Shown here in pieces: positions 10,351-35,502 of a stretch of 64,000 nt of DNA. The notes under the pieces are model-generated. The model had not been told where the DNA came from, searched no databases, and saw only the letters and a list, made by a program, of their open reading frames with translations. How positions within the stretch are numbered: the stretch's first letter is position 1; every line of letters starts with the position of its first letter. A program made the position numbers and the translations under genes. The stretch spans positions 128,001 to 192,000 of the forward strand of contig JAHLWP010000001.1 of assembly GCA_019057865.1 (NCBI GenBank). The letters are read 5' to 3'. This DNA is from Promethearchaeota archaeon (GTDB taxonomy: Archaea > Asgardarchaeota > Lokiarchaeia > Sigyniarchaeales > SOKP01).

Positions 10351-11868
10351 TTATTTTTCACCCCAAAAATTAAATTTTCCTCTACTTAATATCATTTTTG
10401 GATCTAAAGTTTTTTTATTTGATTTCATTACATTATAATACTCTTCTGAATATGCTCCGATATCAACCATAACACGAGACATATAATCTCCCATCATGTA
10501 CCATTGTACACCATGCTCAGTAACTCTTTTCAACAGAGATTTCCATAGTTTTATATTTATTTCATCGATAATTTTATGGGCTTCTCCATTATAGAAACTC
10601 CAGAAACTAGTAAACCCACAAGTAATTTCTACATTAGTTCCATCTATTAATAGAATTGGACCACTTCCTGCAATACATCTTATTTTAGTAATTTCAAAGA
10701 TTTTTTGCATATCTTCTTGATGCTCAAAATCCCATTGATCAATATCATCTAAGATACTAGGATATTGTATTATAGGACTAAAACATTCGGCTGTGAGAGG
10801 TTGTATAGTAGGAAAGATTCCCCATAAATTATGATAGAATTGCCAATGTCCTTGTTCAGTATAATGCCATTTAGCGATATTCCCATCTGATATTTCAGGT
10901 CCTAGTTCTTCACTTTTATTTTCCACCATAATCTTATCTAATTGCCTTATCTTTTCGTCTAGCTCTTTTTCAGAATTTGCTTCTATGGTATAAAAGATCA
11001 TACCTCTCTTTTTTTTTAGATCATCCCATAATGGCAAAAATTTTTCTTGCGTCCCAAATCTCACAAGCAGATCCATAATATACATTAAATCATAAACATC
11101 AATTCCTTTTTGTCTAATCTCACTCATCATCTGAGCAGAAATTTCAAGTGAGTTTCGAGGCATTAAAAATGTTTTATAACCAGCATATTCAGGTTTAGGA
11201 AAAACTTGCAGTGAAACTTTTGTTTTTACTCCAAAAATTCCATTATCACCACAAAAAAGTGCAGCTAAATCAGGACCATTTCCAAATCTATTAAATGGGA
11301 ATTTTGAATGTATATTTGCTTGAGATCCTGTTTCAATGATTTCACCAGTTGGCAAAACAACTTCCAATGAAACTAGTTGATTAGTACAGGCACCATACTT
11401 AGCACATCCACCACCACCTACTGAATGATGAGAAGGTCCTCCTCCTATTGATGATGTCAATCCAGATCCTGGACCCATACACCCTGTGTAAAGCCCAAAA
11501 TGACATAAATATTCATTTAGTTTACTTCAAGAGATACCAGCTTCCACAGTAACTATTAAATTATCTATATCCAAATTCAATACTTTATCCATACTTTTTA
11601 GATCTAAGACAATTCCAGTATCTCCAATAGGTTTACTCCCTCCAAACTCACAGTCTCCACCACCTCGAGGGATAACTGGTACATTCTTTTCATTGGCAAT
11701 TTTGAGAATATATGAAATTTCTTCTGTAGTTTTAGGACGTATAACAATATCAGGAACACCTTGAAGATTGGAAGTAACATTCCGGGAATAAGCGTGTCGA
11801 ACATATAAGTCATTAGATATCCTATTTTTGGACACTATTCTTTCTAATTTCTGGTACAATCCTGACAT
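10351..11868 (-). pseudogene. FAD-binding oxidoreductase copy 2, with in-frame TGA (11527-11529) at a Trp position
   Basis: ORFs 11527-11868 and 10351-11478 share one frame: EAGIS*SKLNEYLCHFGLYTGCM versus EAGISWGKLNEYLCRFGLYTGCM in copy 1. Span is 1518 nt, the same as copy 1. Confidence 0.82.
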
Positions 11869-11887: not shown

Positions 11888-13150
11888 TTATAGTTTAGAT
11901 GCAATTAGGTCAATTATATCAATAACTTTAATTTTTTCTTTGATTTCTGGCTCCATTTCTTCATAAGCATTGCTTAGATTTCCGATGCAAAAAGGACAGC
12001 TAGTAGTTAAGATTTGTGCGCCTGATTCAACAGCTTCTTTTATCCTTTCTTGTGAGATTTTAAGAGCTAATTCAGAGAATTGACTCTTCATACCTCCCCC
12101 CGCTCCACAACACCAAGCATTATTTTTATTTCTTTTCATTTCGACTAATTCAATTCCAGGTATTTTAGAAAGAACTTCTCGAGGGATTTCATAAAGATTC
12201 ATATGACGTCCTAAATGGCAGGGATCATGATAAGTGACTTTAACTCTTTCCATCTCTTCTTTAAAAGATATTTTATTGTTATTGATTAATTCCACCAATA
12301 TTTCTGTTATGTGTTTCACTTCAAATGGTAATTCATAGCCTAGTAATTCAGGATAATCTTTTTTCCAAGTTCTATAACATCCTGCGCAAGCTGTAAATAA
12401 GGTTTTAGCACTTTTATTTTTGAATTCATCAATATTGTGCTTAATCATTTCAGTTATAGATTTTTCATCACCAATCCTTATAGCAATAGAACCACAGCAC
12501 CACTCATCTTTAGACATTGCAATTTCTATTCCTGCTGCTTTCAATATTTTCATCATGCTTTTTAGCGTTTCTACTTGTCTTAAGGGCATGGTACACCCTC
12601 CAAAAAACATTAAGTCTCCCTTTTCCTTAATCTCAGGAAATTCCTTTATCCAATCAAATTTTTTATCTTTATCTTCTCCATAAGGATTCTTCATATTATC
12701 ATCGTTCATATACTCGATTAGATCACCATGTCCATCCAGAGGAGCAAAACCAGCCTCAACTAGATCCTTTCTTAATGCTTCCCATACTTTTACATGATCG
12801 ATCCAATTGCTTGTGGGAAGAACAATATATGGATTCTGAGACATATGGCAAACCTCAGTACAATTCCCACATTCGCTGCATTGGTAAACCCATTCAGCAA
12901 GTTCTCTACTCAAAGGAATTTGACCTTCTAAAATGCTCTTGAGAACATTCATTCTTCCCCTTGCAAAATATATTTCAAAACCTTCCTCTTCCTTAGCTTC
13001 CAATACAGGACATGTTAAATATCTACCAACAACAGGTCGAATGGCATACCCACAATCTCCGCAGCCCAAATATAGATTCCAGGAGCTCTAGAACCTTATA
13101 CACGACATGACCGCTTTCCATTCTTTCTTTAAATGTTTCAATTCACTCAT
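11888..13150 (-). CDS. HdrD/GlpC-type (Fe-S)-binding oxidoreductase subunit, intron-containing (exons 13150-13098 and 13067-11888; 410 aa spliced)
   Basis: Spliced N-terminus MSELKHLKKEWKAVMSCMGCGDCGY restores CxxCxxC. Also CSECGNCTEVC, EWCCGS, YHDPCHLGR, CCGAGGG and SCPFC (CCG domains). Confidence 0.88.
13068..13097 (-). other. 30-nt bulge-helix-bulge mRNA intron containing an in-frame UAG
   Basis: GUC-GUGU-[AU^A]-AGGUUCUAG(AGCUC)CUGGAAUCU-AUAU-[UU^G]-GGC. Removal gives UGU AUG GGC UGC (C-M-G-C). Confidence 0.85.
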
Positions 13151-13151
13151 T

Positions 13152-14669
13152 TTATTTTTCACCCCAAAAATTAAATTTACCTCTACTTAAAATCATATTT
13201 GGGTCAACAGTTTTTTTGATTGATTTCATTAAATTATAAAATTCTTCTGAATAAGCTCCAATATCTACCATGAAGCGAGACAAAAAATCACCCATCATAT
13301 ACCATTGTACTCCATGTTTTATTACCCTTTCTAAGAGAGATTTCCATAATTTTATATTTATTTCTTTGATGATTTCATGGATTTCTTCATTATAATATCT
13401 CCAAAAGCTGACAAAACCAGTTGTTATCTCAACATTATTACCGTCTACTAGAGGAACGGGACCACTACCTGATATAGGACGAGTTTTCGTAATATCAAAT
13501 ATTTTTCGCATATCTGCTTCATTTTCTATATCCCATTGATCAACATCTTGCAAAATTTTGGGGAATGCACTAATTGGGCAAAAACATTCAGCTGATAAAG
13601 CTTGCATTGAAGGAAACATTCCCCATAGATTATGATACAATTGCCAATGTCCTTTTTCAACATAATGTCATTTAGCAATATTTCCATCAGATATTTCTGG
13701 ACCTAAATTTTCAGATTTTTTATTCAAAATCATATCATCTAATTTCTTAACATTTTCATTTAATTCAACTTCAGAATTTGCTTCTATAGTATAGAAAAAC
13801 ATTCCTCGCCTACGTTTTAAATGTTCCCATAACGGAAAGAATCCTTGGTCTGATCCTATAGCAACCACAACATCTGGAATAAACATCGCATCATAAACAT
13901 CAATTCCCTTTTGTCTAATTTCATTCATAATCTGTGCTGCTGTTACAGCAGATTTACGAGGCATTAAAAAAGTTTTATATTCTGCAAATTCCGGTTTAGG
14001 AAATACTTGTAAAGAAATTTTTGTTTTTACACCAAAGATTCCATTATCCCCACAAAAAAGACCTGCTAAATCAGGCCCATTTCCAAATCTATTGAATGGT
14101 AATTTCGAATATTTATTGGCCTGAGAACCGGTTTCTATTATTTCTCCTGTTGGTAAAACTACTTCCAGAGAAATTAATTGGTTAGTGCAAGCACCATATT
14201 TAGCACATCCTCCTCCACCAACAGAATGATGAGAAATACCCCCACCTACTGATGCACTCATCCCAGAACCAGGTCCCATACACCCTGTATAGAGTCCAAA
14301 ACGGCACAAATATTCATTTAGTTTTCCCCAAGAAATTCCTGCTTCAACTGTTGTTATGAGATTATCTTCATCTAAATTAATAATGTTATTCATTCTTTTC
14401 ATATCTAAAACTATACCCCCATCTCCAATAGGTTTGCTTCCACCAAATTCGCAAATACCAGCTCCACGAGGGATAACAGCTATATTCTCTTCATTGGCAA
14501 TTTTAAGGATTTCTGAGATTTCTTTTGCATCTATTGGTCTTATAATAATATCAGGTACTCCTTGTAAAACAAGATCAACATTTCTGGAATAAGCATGGCG
14601 CACATAAATATCATTTGAGAGAAACTCTTTTGATACTACTTTTTCTAACTTTTTGTAGACTTCTGACAT
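13152..14669 (-). pseudogene. FAD-binding oxidoreductase copy 1, with in-frame TGA (13668-13670) at a Trp position
   Basis: DGNIAK*HYVEKGHWQLYHNLWG versus DGNIAKWHY in both paralogs; otherwise full length (PRGAG, GPDL..F.GDNGIFGV, DPNMILSRG). Confidence 0.8.
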
Positions 14670-33982: not shown

Positions 33983-35502
33983 ATGTCATATAAATTACCA
34001 GACGAGAAAGATTTAGAAGCTATGATAGGCATTGTGGGAAAAGAATATGCTACAAATAATAAAGCTATTACTGCGTCTTACCTGTCGAAATCAGTAATGG
34101 GTTTAGAAATCTATTATCCAAAATCGGATAATGACTAAAGAGCCAAATCCCTGATATCGTCGTTCGACCGAAATTTGTTGAAGAAATCCGTAAAATCTTA
34201 ATATATTGCTCTGCAGAAAAAATTGCAGTGAGTCCCGTTTCAGCAGGATTATCTGGTGGCTTTGCTTGCCCAACAATTAAGCCCGGTGGAGTACTTCTCG
34301 ATTTAGGAAGAATGAACAGGATTATTGAAATTGATACAGAGAATCGGTATGTCGTTGTCGAACCGGGGGTAACAATTGGTGAACTTTGGGCTTATATGCA
34401 TAAGAATACTCCAGATTGGGCGCCCCCTATACCAGATGGTGCTCCACCAGCCTCAACTGTTATGGGCGACGCTATTGATAGAGGTTTTTCTCTCTATACT
34501 TCAAGCGTTGGACCACAAGGAGATAATTTTATGTGCGGAGAAGTTGTATTTCCAAATGGTGATATTGTACGAACTGGCTCTTGGGCTCTTCCTTTTGCTA
34601 AACCTTTTTATAAATATGGGTTAGGACCTGATATTTGGTCAACTATTATGGGTAGTCAAGGAGCTTTAGGAGTGGTTACGAAAGTCGCAGTTAAGATTTT
34701 TCCACATCCTGAATTTAAGACAGTAGTTGTATGGGGTATGTCCAACCCTCATGATATGCAAGATTTAACGTTAGAAATTGGGAAACAAGAATTTGGAATT
34801 GCCCATAACACTGTTATGGTTCAAGGCGGAAATTATCATTTAGTCATGGCTCGATGGCCTAAAGATAAAGTACCCCATGATTATGAATTCTATAAAGAAC
34901 TAGGAATTAGTAAATGGTGGATGAATTGGGAGTGCTGGGCACAAACTCAAGAAGAGTTGGACTATGTAACTAATAGAATTAATAAAATGGCCGAAGATTT
35001 CAAGAAGAATAGAGCTAAAGATCCTGATGCATTAAAACCTCAGGAACTTCATCCGAAACAAATTGCAAGCAGGTTAAAAAAACCTAATAAAATTGCTATA
35101 CCCTATAGTTTCTGGGAAGCGGGATTTTTATTTATTACTTGGTACACTCCATGGAATGAATGTGCCCATTTTGCTGAAATGTATACAAAGGCAATGGAGA
35201 AATATGGATTCCCACCAGTTATGTGGATCGCGAGTATCGAACGCTGCCGACAAGCAATTTGTATGCCCATTATTTGTTTCGATTCGACTAACACCTCAGA
35301 ATTTGAAAGAGTTCAAGATATGAATAGAGAAACAACTGAATACGGGCTTAAACAAGGATGGTTGAATTATAGACCAGACCCATACATTCACGCTCCTCTT
35401 ACATATAGTCAAGCTGGAATGTACTGGAAATACTTAAGAAAGATAAAGAAGATGTTTGATCCTAATATGATAATGCATCCTGGGAGGCTTGCCCTTCCAT
35501 AA
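33983..35502 (+). CDS. FAD-binding oxidoreductase, intron-containing (exons 33983-34108 and 34141-35502; 495 aa spliced)
   Basis: Exon 1 MSYKLPDEKDLEAMIGIVGKEYAT...SVMGLE plus exon 2 SQIPDIVVRPKFVEEI...VEPGVT...GPD...GSQGALGVVTK...DPNMIMHPG. The ORF track shows only 34228-35502. Confidence 0.88.
34109..34140 (+). other. 32-nt canonical bulge-helix-bulge mRNA intron
   Basis: GGU-UUAG-[AA^A]-UC(U)AUUAUCC(AAAAUC)GGAUAAU-GA-CUAA-[AG^A]-GCC. Excision removes a UAA stop and the frameshift. Confidence 0.9.

What the first reader, a model, noticed from the sequence alone, without database searches (positions are those of the whole stretch)
13064..13106. 30-nt BHB intron splitting the first [4Fe-4S] motif of an HdrD/GlpC-type gene
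Seen: from ATG 13150 the frame reads ...VMSC-IRF*SSWNLYL-GCGDCGY, so 30 extra nt with a UAG sit inside CxxCxxC. Fold: outer GUC/GGC, central GUGU/AUAU (two G-U pairs), bulges AUA and UUG, 9-bp inner stem AGGUUCUAG/CUGGAAUCU with a 5-nt loop. The EndA cut rule gives UGU AU|G GGC UGC GGA GAU UGU = CMGCGDC, restoring the cluster ligands. A gene caller's TTG start at 13069 would lose the first Cys. Inference: the full enzyme is made only after splicing.
Basis: partly seen in the sequence, partly recalled or inferred. Interest (0 to 1): 0.93.

Follow-up and report, generated by a model that had tools for sequence, protein, structure and literature searches.

The report
tRNA-type mini-intron in Asgard enzyme gene
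A 30-base insert that seems to break an iron-sulfur enzyme gene of an uncultured Asgard archaeon has the exact shape cut by the tRNA-splicing enzyme. Relatives keep such inserts at the same spot, so the messenger RNA is very probably spliced; the papers I could search show this for only one archaeal protein gene, cbf5.

Summary
On the minus strand, ATG 13150 opens an HdrD/GlcF-like gene (Fer4_8 plus two CCG domains). Thirty bases (13097-13068, with in-frame TAG 13090-13088) sit inside the first CxxCxxC.

They form a canonical hBHBh' motif: 3-bp exon-exon helix, 4-bp central helix, two 3-nt bulges on opposite strands, 9-bp inner stem. Cutting after the second nucleotide of each bulge gives SCMGCGDC, as about 85 of 120 homologues read without a break.

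At least 19 orthologues carry inserts of 29-63 nt at this site, mostly not multiples of three:
- The helices covary (87% of cells paired against 37-53% in slid controls).
- Exon 1 is under the same purifying selection as in intronless genes (pN/pS 0.22 against 0.21).

The genome encodes two EndA-domain proteins and RtcB, and no PylS. My own scan found two more such introns in this genome, in AMP-binding/acetyl-CoA-synthetase-like and Zn-ADH genes.

No RNA test was possible. Two cautions apply: the BHB fold is 3 kcal/mol above the MFE, and both flanking GlcD-like genes carry a TGA at an invariant Trp.

The scan has noted this intron class before on other DNA.

The parts
13098..13150 (-). Exon 1: ATG 13150, 17 codons (MSELKHLKKEWKAVMSC) plus AU, the first two bases of the Met codon
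   Evidence: The same 17 codons are conserved in 19 intron-bearing and 9 intronless orthologues, with pN/pS 0.22 and 0.21.
13068..13097 (-). 30-nt BHB intron (AAGGUUCUAGAGCUCCUGGAAUCUAUAUUU). 13069-13098 gives the same product.
   Evidence: It is the only strict BHB in the segment and sits exactly at the orthology-defined boundaries.
11888..13067 (-). Exon 2: G completing AUG, then GCGDCGY... to stop TAA 11890-11888. Holds the rest of the Fer4_8 dicluster domain and two CCG domains.
   Evidence: It is 94-96% identical to the nearest orthologues.
13104..13106 (-). Outer exon-exon helix h, 5' strand (GUC). Pairs with GGC 13064-13066.
   Evidence: In one search two of the three pairs are invariant (U.G, C-G) and the third is GC 7, CG 1, GU 1 and unpaired 6.
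13064..13066 (-). Outer helix h, 3' strand (GGC, the Gly codon)
   Evidence: The residue is always a GGN codon in intron-bearing orthologues.
13100..13103 (-). Central 4-bp helix H, 5' strand (GUGU: third base of the Ser codon plus the Cys codon)
   Evidence: The H helix is 98.3% paired over 15 orthologues, and its first pair is UA 5, CG 4, GU 3, UG 2.
13070..13073 (-). Central helix H, 3' strand (AUAU, in the intron)
   Evidence: The nearest intron, L044, has ACAU, which makes a G-C pair.
13097..13099 (-). 5' three-nucleotide bulge AUA, predicted cut AU|A
13067..13069 (-). 3' three-nucleotide bulge UUG, predicted cut UU|G. It is also the TTG that gene callers take as the start.
13074..13096 (-). 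Inner intron hairpin h': 9 bp (13096-13088 with 13082-13074) and loop AGCUC 13087-13083
   Evidence: All 9 pairs show changes on both sides among orthologues.
13088..13090 (-). In-frame TAG inside the intron. It ends translation of unspliced RNA after 20 residues.
13152..14669 (-). Upstream GlcD-like FAD-binding oxidoreductase gene of the same cluster. It has one in-frame TGA at 13668-13670.
10351..11868 (-). Downstream GlcD-like paralogue. It has one in-frame TGA at 11527-11529.

Best explanation
The 30 nt at 13097-13068 (minus strand) are an archaeal bulge-helix-bulge intron inside the coding sequence of an HdrD/GlcF-like Fe-S subunit gene of a Promethearchaeota (Loki-type Asgard) archaeon. 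In the pre-mRNA, the last 9 nt of exon 1 and the first 4 nt of exon 2 pair with each other and with the intron's 3' end. This forms h (3 bp), H (4 bp) and two 3-nt bulges, and the intron body forms a 9-bp hairpin. The host's heteromeric splicing endonuclease EndA cuts after the second nucleotide of each bulge, and RtcB joins the exons. That creates the AUG codon of ...S-C-M-G-C-G-D-C... and so restores the first Cys ligand and the CxxCxxC spacing of the first [4Fe-4S] motif. Unspliced RNA can give only a 20-residue peptide, or a protein started at UUG 13069 that lacks the first Cys. What is shown here: the geometry, the junction, the conservation and covariation in orthologues, selection on exon 1, and the presence of the enzymes. 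What is inferred: that cleavage and ligation happen in vivo, and how efficiently.
For: 1. The junction predicted from geometry alone equals the contiguous sequence SCM[G/N/S]CGDCG of about 85 of 120 homologues.
2. DNA of 19 distinct orthologues from independent assemblies has an insert at the same phase-2 site. Lengths are 29, 30, 31, 34, 59, 61, 62 and 63 nt, mostly not multiples of 3, so they cannot be translated through.
3. A strict BHB lies exactly at the orthology-defined boundaries in 12 of 14 short-intron orthologues.
4. Covariation on alignment A1: 87.4% of cells are paired against 37-53% when partners are slid, and 0 of 500 shuffles reach this. 11 of 16 pairs change on both sides, and the H helix is 98% paired with four pair types at its first position.
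5. Exon 1 keeps its start codon (ATG in 18 of 19; L015 reads ATT at that position) and its Cys codon. It evolves at pN/pS 0.22 in intron-bearing genes against 0.21 in intronless genes.
6. The exon bases that build h are constrained. Ser is always UCN and the residue after Met is always Gly GGN in intron-bearing genes. Intronless genes also use AGY for Ser and AAU (Asn) at that position.
7. The genome has two EndA-domain genes (ORFs of 200 and 207 aa) and RtcB. PMC5829648 reports that Asgard archaea have the (alpha-beta)2 EndA with the L1 loop.
8. The same cut rule restores conserved domains in two other genes of this genome found by my own scan. One is an AMP-binding/acetyl-CoA-synthetase-like gene, where the Pfam profile runs 6-211 then 215-321. 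The other is a Zn-ADH gene, where the junction reads CG-I-CGSDVH.
Against: No RNA evidence for this gene could be obtained. In this copy the H helix is weak (two G.U and two A-U pairs). The BHB conformer is 3.1 kcal/mol less stable than an alternative hairpin that absorbs the 5' bulge, and the fold's z-score is only -1.35. The outer helix has only 3 bp. Both neighbouring GlcD-like genes carry a TGA at a Trp that is invariant in all orthologues, so the cluster may be decaying in this organism. The closest relative (L009, 96-97% protein identity) has no intron.
Confidence: 0.82

Rival explanations
1. Decaying gene: the insert is, or has become, an inactivating lesion in a gene cluster that this organism is losing, and it is no longer spliced.
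For: Both flanking GlcD-like genes have a nonsense TGA at an invariant Trp. The H helix of this copy is weakened (AUAU instead of the ACAU of L044). The BHB is not the minimum-energy fold.
Against: Apart from the insert the 393-codon exon 2 is open and 94-96% identical to intact orthologues. All 16 BHB pairs are still standard pairs. The intron differs from that of L044 only by changes that keep pairing, by changes in the loop, and by one G-C to G.U change. Homologous introns are kept in 18 other orthologues whose exon 1 is under selection.
Confidence: 0.08
2. No splicing: the functional protein starts at UUG 13069 (or an equivalent codon) and lacks the first Cys, and exon 1 is a separate leader peptide or is untranslated.
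For: Gene callers annotate about 24 of 120 homologues in this way. A start codon lies in or near the 3' bulge in many orthologues (UUG, AUG).
Against: Exon 1 has the same pN/pS as in intronless genes, always ends in the Cys codon plus AU, and keeps an ATG at its start in 18 of 19 intron-bearing orthologues. The Met codon of C-M-G-C exists only after joining. Covariation of the h, H and h' helices would be unexplained. The truncated form loses a cluster ligand that all 85 contiguous homologues keep.
Confidence: 0.05
3. Translational recoding: UAG read-through or pyrrolysine, or ribosomal bypassing over the 30 nt.
For: In this one copy the insert is 30 nt and in frame with a single UAG. A stable hairpin follows the Cys codon, as in the T4 gene 60 bypass (my own knowledge).
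Against: Orthologous inserts are 29, 31, 34, 59 and 61-63 nt long and contain stops. No PylS scores above the family cut-off in the genome. A 12-residue spacer between Cys1 and Cys2 occurs in none of the roughly 85 homologues that read through this site without a break. There are no matched take-off and landing codons, and the conserved Met could not be produced by hopping.
Confidence: 0.02

Closest known systems
BHB intron of the cbf5 (pseudouridine synthase) pre-mRNA of Crenarchaeota (Watanabe 2002; Yoshinari 2006; Yokobori 2009, PMC2738675)
   Same: Both are short introns inside a protein-coding sequence that fold with the flanking exons into a bulge-helix-bulge-like structure recognised by EndA. 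Both hosts have the hetero-oligomeric EndA. In both, presence or absence is patchy among related lineages (PMC2738675).
   Different: The phylum differs (Asgard/Promethearchaeota, not Desulfurococcales or Sulfolobales) and the gene is unrelated (an HdrD/GlcF-like Fe-S subunit). This intron is a fully canonical hBHBh' of only 30 nt. It splits a codon inside a metal-binding CxxCxxC motif 17 codons from the start. Orthologues show zero, one or two tandem introns at the same site even among 96-97% identical proteins. Splicing has been shown experimentally for cbf5 but not here.
Canonical and non-canonical BHB introns of archaeal pre-tRNAs, very abundant in Asgard archaea (Marck and Grosjean 2003; bioRxiv 10.64898/2026.10.13.758758)
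   Same: The motif geometry (two 3-nt bulges on opposite strands of a 4-bp helix) and the presumed enzymes (EndA, RtcB) are identical. [quoted passage not shown]
   Different: Here the exon is an mRNA coding region, so exon pairing has to be met through codon choice (Ser UCN, Gly GGN). The product is a protein, not a tRNA. The cited preprint treats tRNA genes only.
Unconventional HAC1/XBP1 mRNA splicing in eukaryotes (Ire1 cleavage; ligation by tRNA ligase or RtcB; cited in PMC6379350 and PMC8718801)
   Same: Both are spliceosome-independent removal of a short intron from a coding sequence, by an endonuclease that recognises RNA structure, followed by a tRNA-type ligase.
   Different: The endonuclease is Ire1 and it recognises two stem-loops, not a BHB. 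That splicing is a stress-regulated frame switch, and nothing here indicates regulation.

Membership tests
Archaeal BHB (EndA-dependent) intron | [quoted passage not shown] | tested here: met
   Bulges AUA 13099-13097 and UUG 13069-13067; H is GUGU/AUAU with 4 standard pairs.
Archaeal BHB (EndA-dependent) intron | Flanking helices h (exon-exon) and h' (within the intron), which make the strict hBHBh' form | tested here: met
   h is 3 bp (GUC/GGC) and h' is 9 bp with a 5-nt loop.
Archaeal BHB (EndA-dependent) intron | Cutting after the second bulge nucleotide on each side yields a functional, conserved product | tested here: met
   The junction UGU AU|G GGC gives SCMGCGDC, equal to about 85 contiguous homologues. 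The cut position itself rests on my knowledge of Marck and Grosjean 2003 and Xue et al. 2006. It is supported internally by 12 of 14 orthologues and two other genes.
Archaeal BHB (EndA-dependent) intron | The structure, not the sequence, is conserved in homologues (compensatory changes) | tested here: met
   87.4% of cells paired against 37-53% slid, 11 of 16 pairs with changes on both sides, and 0 of 500 shuffles as high.
Archaeal BHB (EndA-dependent) intron | The host encodes a splicing endonuclease and an RtcB-type ligase | tested here: met
   PF01974 hits at C71:81890 and C69:38574 (104.6 and 70.5 bits); PF01139 hit at C75:110910 (561 bits).
Archaeal BHB (EndA-dependent) intron | Spliced RNA and an excised (circular) intron observed; cleavage by EndA in vitro | not testable with these tools
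cbf5 pre-mRNA intron family | The intron lies in the cbf5/dyskerin homologue | tested here: not met
   The host gene is Fer4_8 plus 2x CCG (PF13183, PF02754), not a pseudouridine synthase. It works like the cbf5 intron but is not homologous to it.
HdrD/GlcF/GlpC-like CCG-domain Fe-S protein (the host gene) | An N-terminal dicluster ferredoxin domain with two Cys motifs, followed by two CCG domains | tested here: met
   CCG E = 4e-38 with two stretches, and Fer4_8 E = 3.5e-6. In the spliced reading the first motif is C-x2-C-x2-C-x14-CP, as in P0006.

The most novel reading that the evidence does not exclude
This intron is one of many EndA/RtcB-spliced mini-introns in protein-coding genes of Promethearchaeota and other Asgard archaea. 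On this reading, the closest prokaryotic relatives of eukaryotes routinely splice mRNAs with the tRNA machinery. The introns turn over quickly: zero, one or two tandem copies occur at one site among 96-97% identical genes. Exon codon choice is shaped by the need to build the splice motif.
Probability: 0.7. Interest if true: 0.9.

Novelty: new member of a known kind. Interest (0 to 1): 0.8.

Why it matters
In the papers I could search, endonuclease-dependent splicing of a coding sequence is documented for a single archaeal gene, cbf5 of Crenarchaeota. A canonical, covarying BHB intron in a metabolic Fe-S gene of an Asgard archaeon extends this to the lineage closest to eukaryotes, and I verified further cases in the same genome.

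It has three practical consequences:
- About a quarter of the database entries of this protein family have wrong N-termini that lack a cluster ligand.
- Gene callers and pseudogene counts for Asgard MAGs will be systematically off.
- Metabolic reconstructions may drop genes that are intact.

It also gives a directly testable system of enzymes, substrate and junction. That system can address how coding regions tolerate and acquire introns without a spliceosome.

Tried and rejected
- Genome-wide enrichment test: I took 92,705 loose BHB hits and filtered them for cases where splicing joins two open stretches of at least 60 codons that are broken without it. This gave 491 hits, against 463-526 when the 3' cut was shifted by 1-2 nt. 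There is no enrichment, because hairpins spanning gene boundaries dominate. The scan is therefore useful only as a candidate finder. Two of its candidates (C23:72193-72216 and C4:6916-6939) proved to be gene boundaries by Pfam, as did C41 (ribosomal protein genes).
- Code 4 (TGA = Trp) for the whole window: rejected. Only the two GlcD-like genes merge, and other genes use TGA as a stop.
- Hypermutation as the source of the TGG>TGA changes: rejected, because the substitution spectrum against L009 is symmetric.
- Pyrrolysine: no PylS above the cut-off.
- Rfam: nothing relevant in 12600-13500.
- Calibrating the cut rule on this genome's own tRNA introns with ARAGORN: it found only 18 tRNAs, many dubious, so I abandoned this.
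- Paralogues of the gene in this genome have no insert at this site.
- P0003 looked truncated but is an intronless gene with a mis-called start.
- I could not resolve a clean BHB register for the frame-breaking gap in the flavoprotein gene at window 33983-35502.

Full report
**What is there**

The window is G000:C23:128001-192000 of a 4.26-Mb, roughly 30% G+C genome. Its closest public relatives are MAGs labelled Promethearchaeota, which are Loki-type Asgard archaea.

On the minus strand a three-gene cluster lies at 14669-10351:
- a GlcD-like FAD-binding oxidoreductase;
- an HdrD/GlcF-like Fe-S protein (Fer4_8 plus two CCG domains);
- a second GlcD-like paralogue.

From ATG 13150 the middle gene reads MSELKHLKKEWKAVMSC IRF* SSWNLYL GCGDCGYAIRP.... 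The stop is TAG 13090-13088. The ORF finder starts the gene at TTG 13069 and so loses the first Cys.

**The fold**

- h: GUC 13106-13104 with GGC 13066-13064.
- H: GUGU 13103-13100 with AUAU 13073-13070.
- Bulges: AUA 13099-13097 and UUG 13069-13067, on opposite strands.
- h': 9 bp, 13096-13088 with 13082-13074, and loop AGCUC.

This is a strict hBHBh' motif. Cutting after the second nucleotide of each bulge removes 13097-13068. It joins UGU AU to G GGC UGC, giving C-M-G-C.

A geometric scan of the segment finds this and no other strict BHB. In the whole genome (both strands, intron lengths 16-110) only about 42 sites are as good (h>=3, h'>=9, loop<=8).

Thermodynamics alone do not single it out. 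The z-score is -1.35. The BHB conformer (-10.4 kcal/mol) lies 3.1 kcal/mol above a hairpin in which GUAU pairs with AUAU.

**Orthologues decide the case**

Of the 120 best homologues (72-94% identity), about 85 read MSELK.LK..WK.I.SCM[G/N/S]CGDCG without a break. That is exactly the predicted junction. About 24 begin at or just before GCGDCG, and 3 begin with MEIIRDRRKIYD....

I fetched DNA for 32 of these loci. Nineteen distinct orthologues have an insert at the same phase-2 position...UGY AU | insert | G GGN UGY... Their lengths are 29, 30, 31, 34, 59, 61, 62 and 63 nt. Most are not multiples of three and carry stops, so they cannot be translated through. The apparently truncated database proteins are annotation artefacts of these inserts. 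The MEIIRDRRK proteins start inside a long insert.

**Structure is conserved while sequence is not**

On an alignment of 15 short-insert orthologues (A1), the BHB structure pairs 87.4% of cells, against 37-53% when partners are slid by 1-3 columns. None of 500 shuffles reaches this.
- 11 of 16 pairs show changes on both sides.
- The central helix is 98% paired.
- Its first pair occurs as U-A, C-G, G.U and U.G.

A strict BHB sits exactly at the orthology-defined boundaries in 12 of 14 orthologues. The other two have one mismatch.

**Exon 1 is still a coding exon**

In the 19 intron-bearing genes the 17 codons upstream keep their start codon (ATG in 18 of 19; L015 reads ATT at that position) and their Cys codon. 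They evolve at pN/pS 0.22, the same as in 9 intronless genes (0.21).

The exon bases that build the outer helix are constrained. Ser16 is always UCN and the residue after Met is always Gly GGN in intron-bearing genes. Intronless genes also use AGY for Ser and Asn AAU at that position.

**Machinery**

The genome has two genes with the EndA catalytic-type domain (ORFs of 200 and 207 aa) and one RtcB. This fits the (alpha-beta)2 EndA with the L1 loop that PMC5829648 reports for Asgard archaea. No PylS is present.

**Context in the genome**

My scan for BHBs whose removal joins long open frames recovered this intron. It also gave two further convincing cases:
- A 32-nt intron in an AMP-binding/acetyl-CoA-synthetase-like gene (C82:548-579). 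The two exons match Pfam AMP-binding positions 6-211 and 215-321.
- A 29-nt intron in a Zn-dependent alcohol dehydrogenase gene (C60:11315-11343). The junction reads CG-I-CGSDVH, and exon 2 starts at ADH_N profile position 15.

As a statistical test the scan failed, because shifted controls pass equally often. It cannot give a count.

Earlier notes of this scan list more such introns in this genome and the same intron class in other Asgard genomes. One of those notes reports a metatranscriptome contig lacking an intron at the predicted cuts. I did not verify those notes. I treat them as leads that agree with my result.

**Evolution**

On a protein tree of 29 orthologues the three states (none, single, tandem) are scattered, with 11 changes, no better than shuffled. 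My sampling favoured intron-bearing genes.

The window's gene (single, 30 nt) groups at 96-97% identity with L009 (none) and L029 (61 nt). Its intron is nearly identical to that of L044, a gene only 84% identical in protein. This points to exchange of the 5' end or to rapid gain and loss.

The long inserts are two tandem BHBs sharing one cut. The 3' cut of the first is the 5' cut of the second, and the GCAG that forms H with the exon in the first motif forms H with a downstream CUGU in the second.

**Cautions for this copy**

Three points leave room for the cluster to be decaying in this organism:
- The H helix here is the weakest in the set, with two G.U pairs.
- The closest relative lacks the intron.
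- Both flanking GlcD-like genes carry a single TGA at a Trp that is invariant in every orthologue. There is no genome-wide TGA recoding and no mutational bias.

That would not change what the element is.

**Comparison and verdict**

The mechanism is that of the cbf5 pre-mRNA intron of Crenarchaeota (PMC2738675). In the library I could search, cbf5 is the only published protein-coding BHB intron. A recent preprint on Asgard introns covers tRNA genes only.

This element is a new member of that kind, in a new phylum and a new gene. It has a fully canonical motif and polymorphic single or tandem forms. I put the probability that it is a real, spliced intron at about 0.8.

Noticed in passing
window 13668-13670 and 11527-11529 (minus strand): Each of the two GlcD-like genes flanking the intron gene has exactly one in-frame TGA. 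Each sits at a Trp (TGG) that is invariant in all fetched orthologues and in the other paralogue. There is no genome-wide excess of in-frame TGA and no G>A mutational bias against L009. Two nonsense changes both hitting Trp codons is unlikely by chance. Possible causes are UGA read-through by tRNA-Trp, recent pseudogenisation or assembly error.
   Followed up: partly
L029:176-258, L032:525-609, L033:355-439, L050:329-412 (also L010:2929-3009): Orthologues with 59-63-nt inserts carry two tandem BHB introns with a zero-length exon between them. The 3' cut of the first is the 5' cut of the second. The same 4 nt (GCAG or GCGG) can form the central helix with either the exon or a downstream copy of the exon's CUGU.
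   Followed up: partly
G000:C82:548-579 (minus; locus L053): A 32-nt canonical BHB intron (h 5 bp, H CGGC/GCUG, h' 10 bp) lies in an AMP-binding/acetyl-CoA-synthetase-like gene. The exons match Pfam AMP-binding positions 6-211 and 215-321, and the junction reads CTA-D-IGWITGHSY.
   Followed up: yes
G000:C60:11315-11343 (minus; locus L054): A 29-nt BHB intron (h' 9 bp) lies in a Zn-dependent alcohol dehydrogenase gene. The junction reads VKRCG-I-CGSDVH, and exon 2 begins at ADH_N profile position 15.
   Followed up: partly
window 33983-35502 (plus strand), gap near 34105-34145: A flavoprotein (GlcD-like) gene upstream of another CCG-domain gene is broken after ...SKSVMGLE. The conserved PDIVVRP continues in another frame about 32 nt later, and a 7-bp hairpin (UUAUCC.../...GGAUAA) lies between. 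Another reader flagged it as a BHB intron. I could not find a clean 4-bp H register.
   Followed up: partly
G000: C14:+44528, C23:-162861, C23:-234910, C37:+8941 (strand-relative indices): Four long frames have an in-frame TGA in the motif (F/Y)PTDDC.I*(I/V)(L/C).(P). These look like selenocysteine codons of HdrA-type genes, so the organism probably uses Sec.
   Followed up: no
G000: C22:+67938, C23:+237036, C36:-21760, C56:+5216 (strand-relative indices): The same 30-nt BHB-shaped element, TTGA.TC|ACTATTTTTATTACTAAGAAATAGTTGGGA|A, occurs at four places in the genome. It may be an intron within a repeated gene or mobile element.
   Followed up: no
whole genome G000: ARAGORN finds only 18 tRNA genes, several of them dubious, in a genome rated 99.7% complete. 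This agrees with heavily interrupted tRNA genes in Asgard archaea (bioRxiv 10.64898/2026.10.13.758758).
   Followed up: no
proteins P0004, P0005, P0007-P0009, P0011-P0013, P0015, P0017, P0018, P0020, P0023, P0028, P0032, P0059, P0064-P0066, P0080, P0093, P0094, P0097, P0100, P0102: Public annotations of this family have N-termini that start in or after the intron (MQKGCGDC, MGCGDC, MEIIRDRRK...) and so miss the first Cys ligand. I confirmed the underlying inserts in DNA for those I fetched (P0008, P0017, P0028, P0032, P0059, P0064, P0080, P0093, P0102). For the rest it is inferred from the N-terminus.
   Followed up: partly
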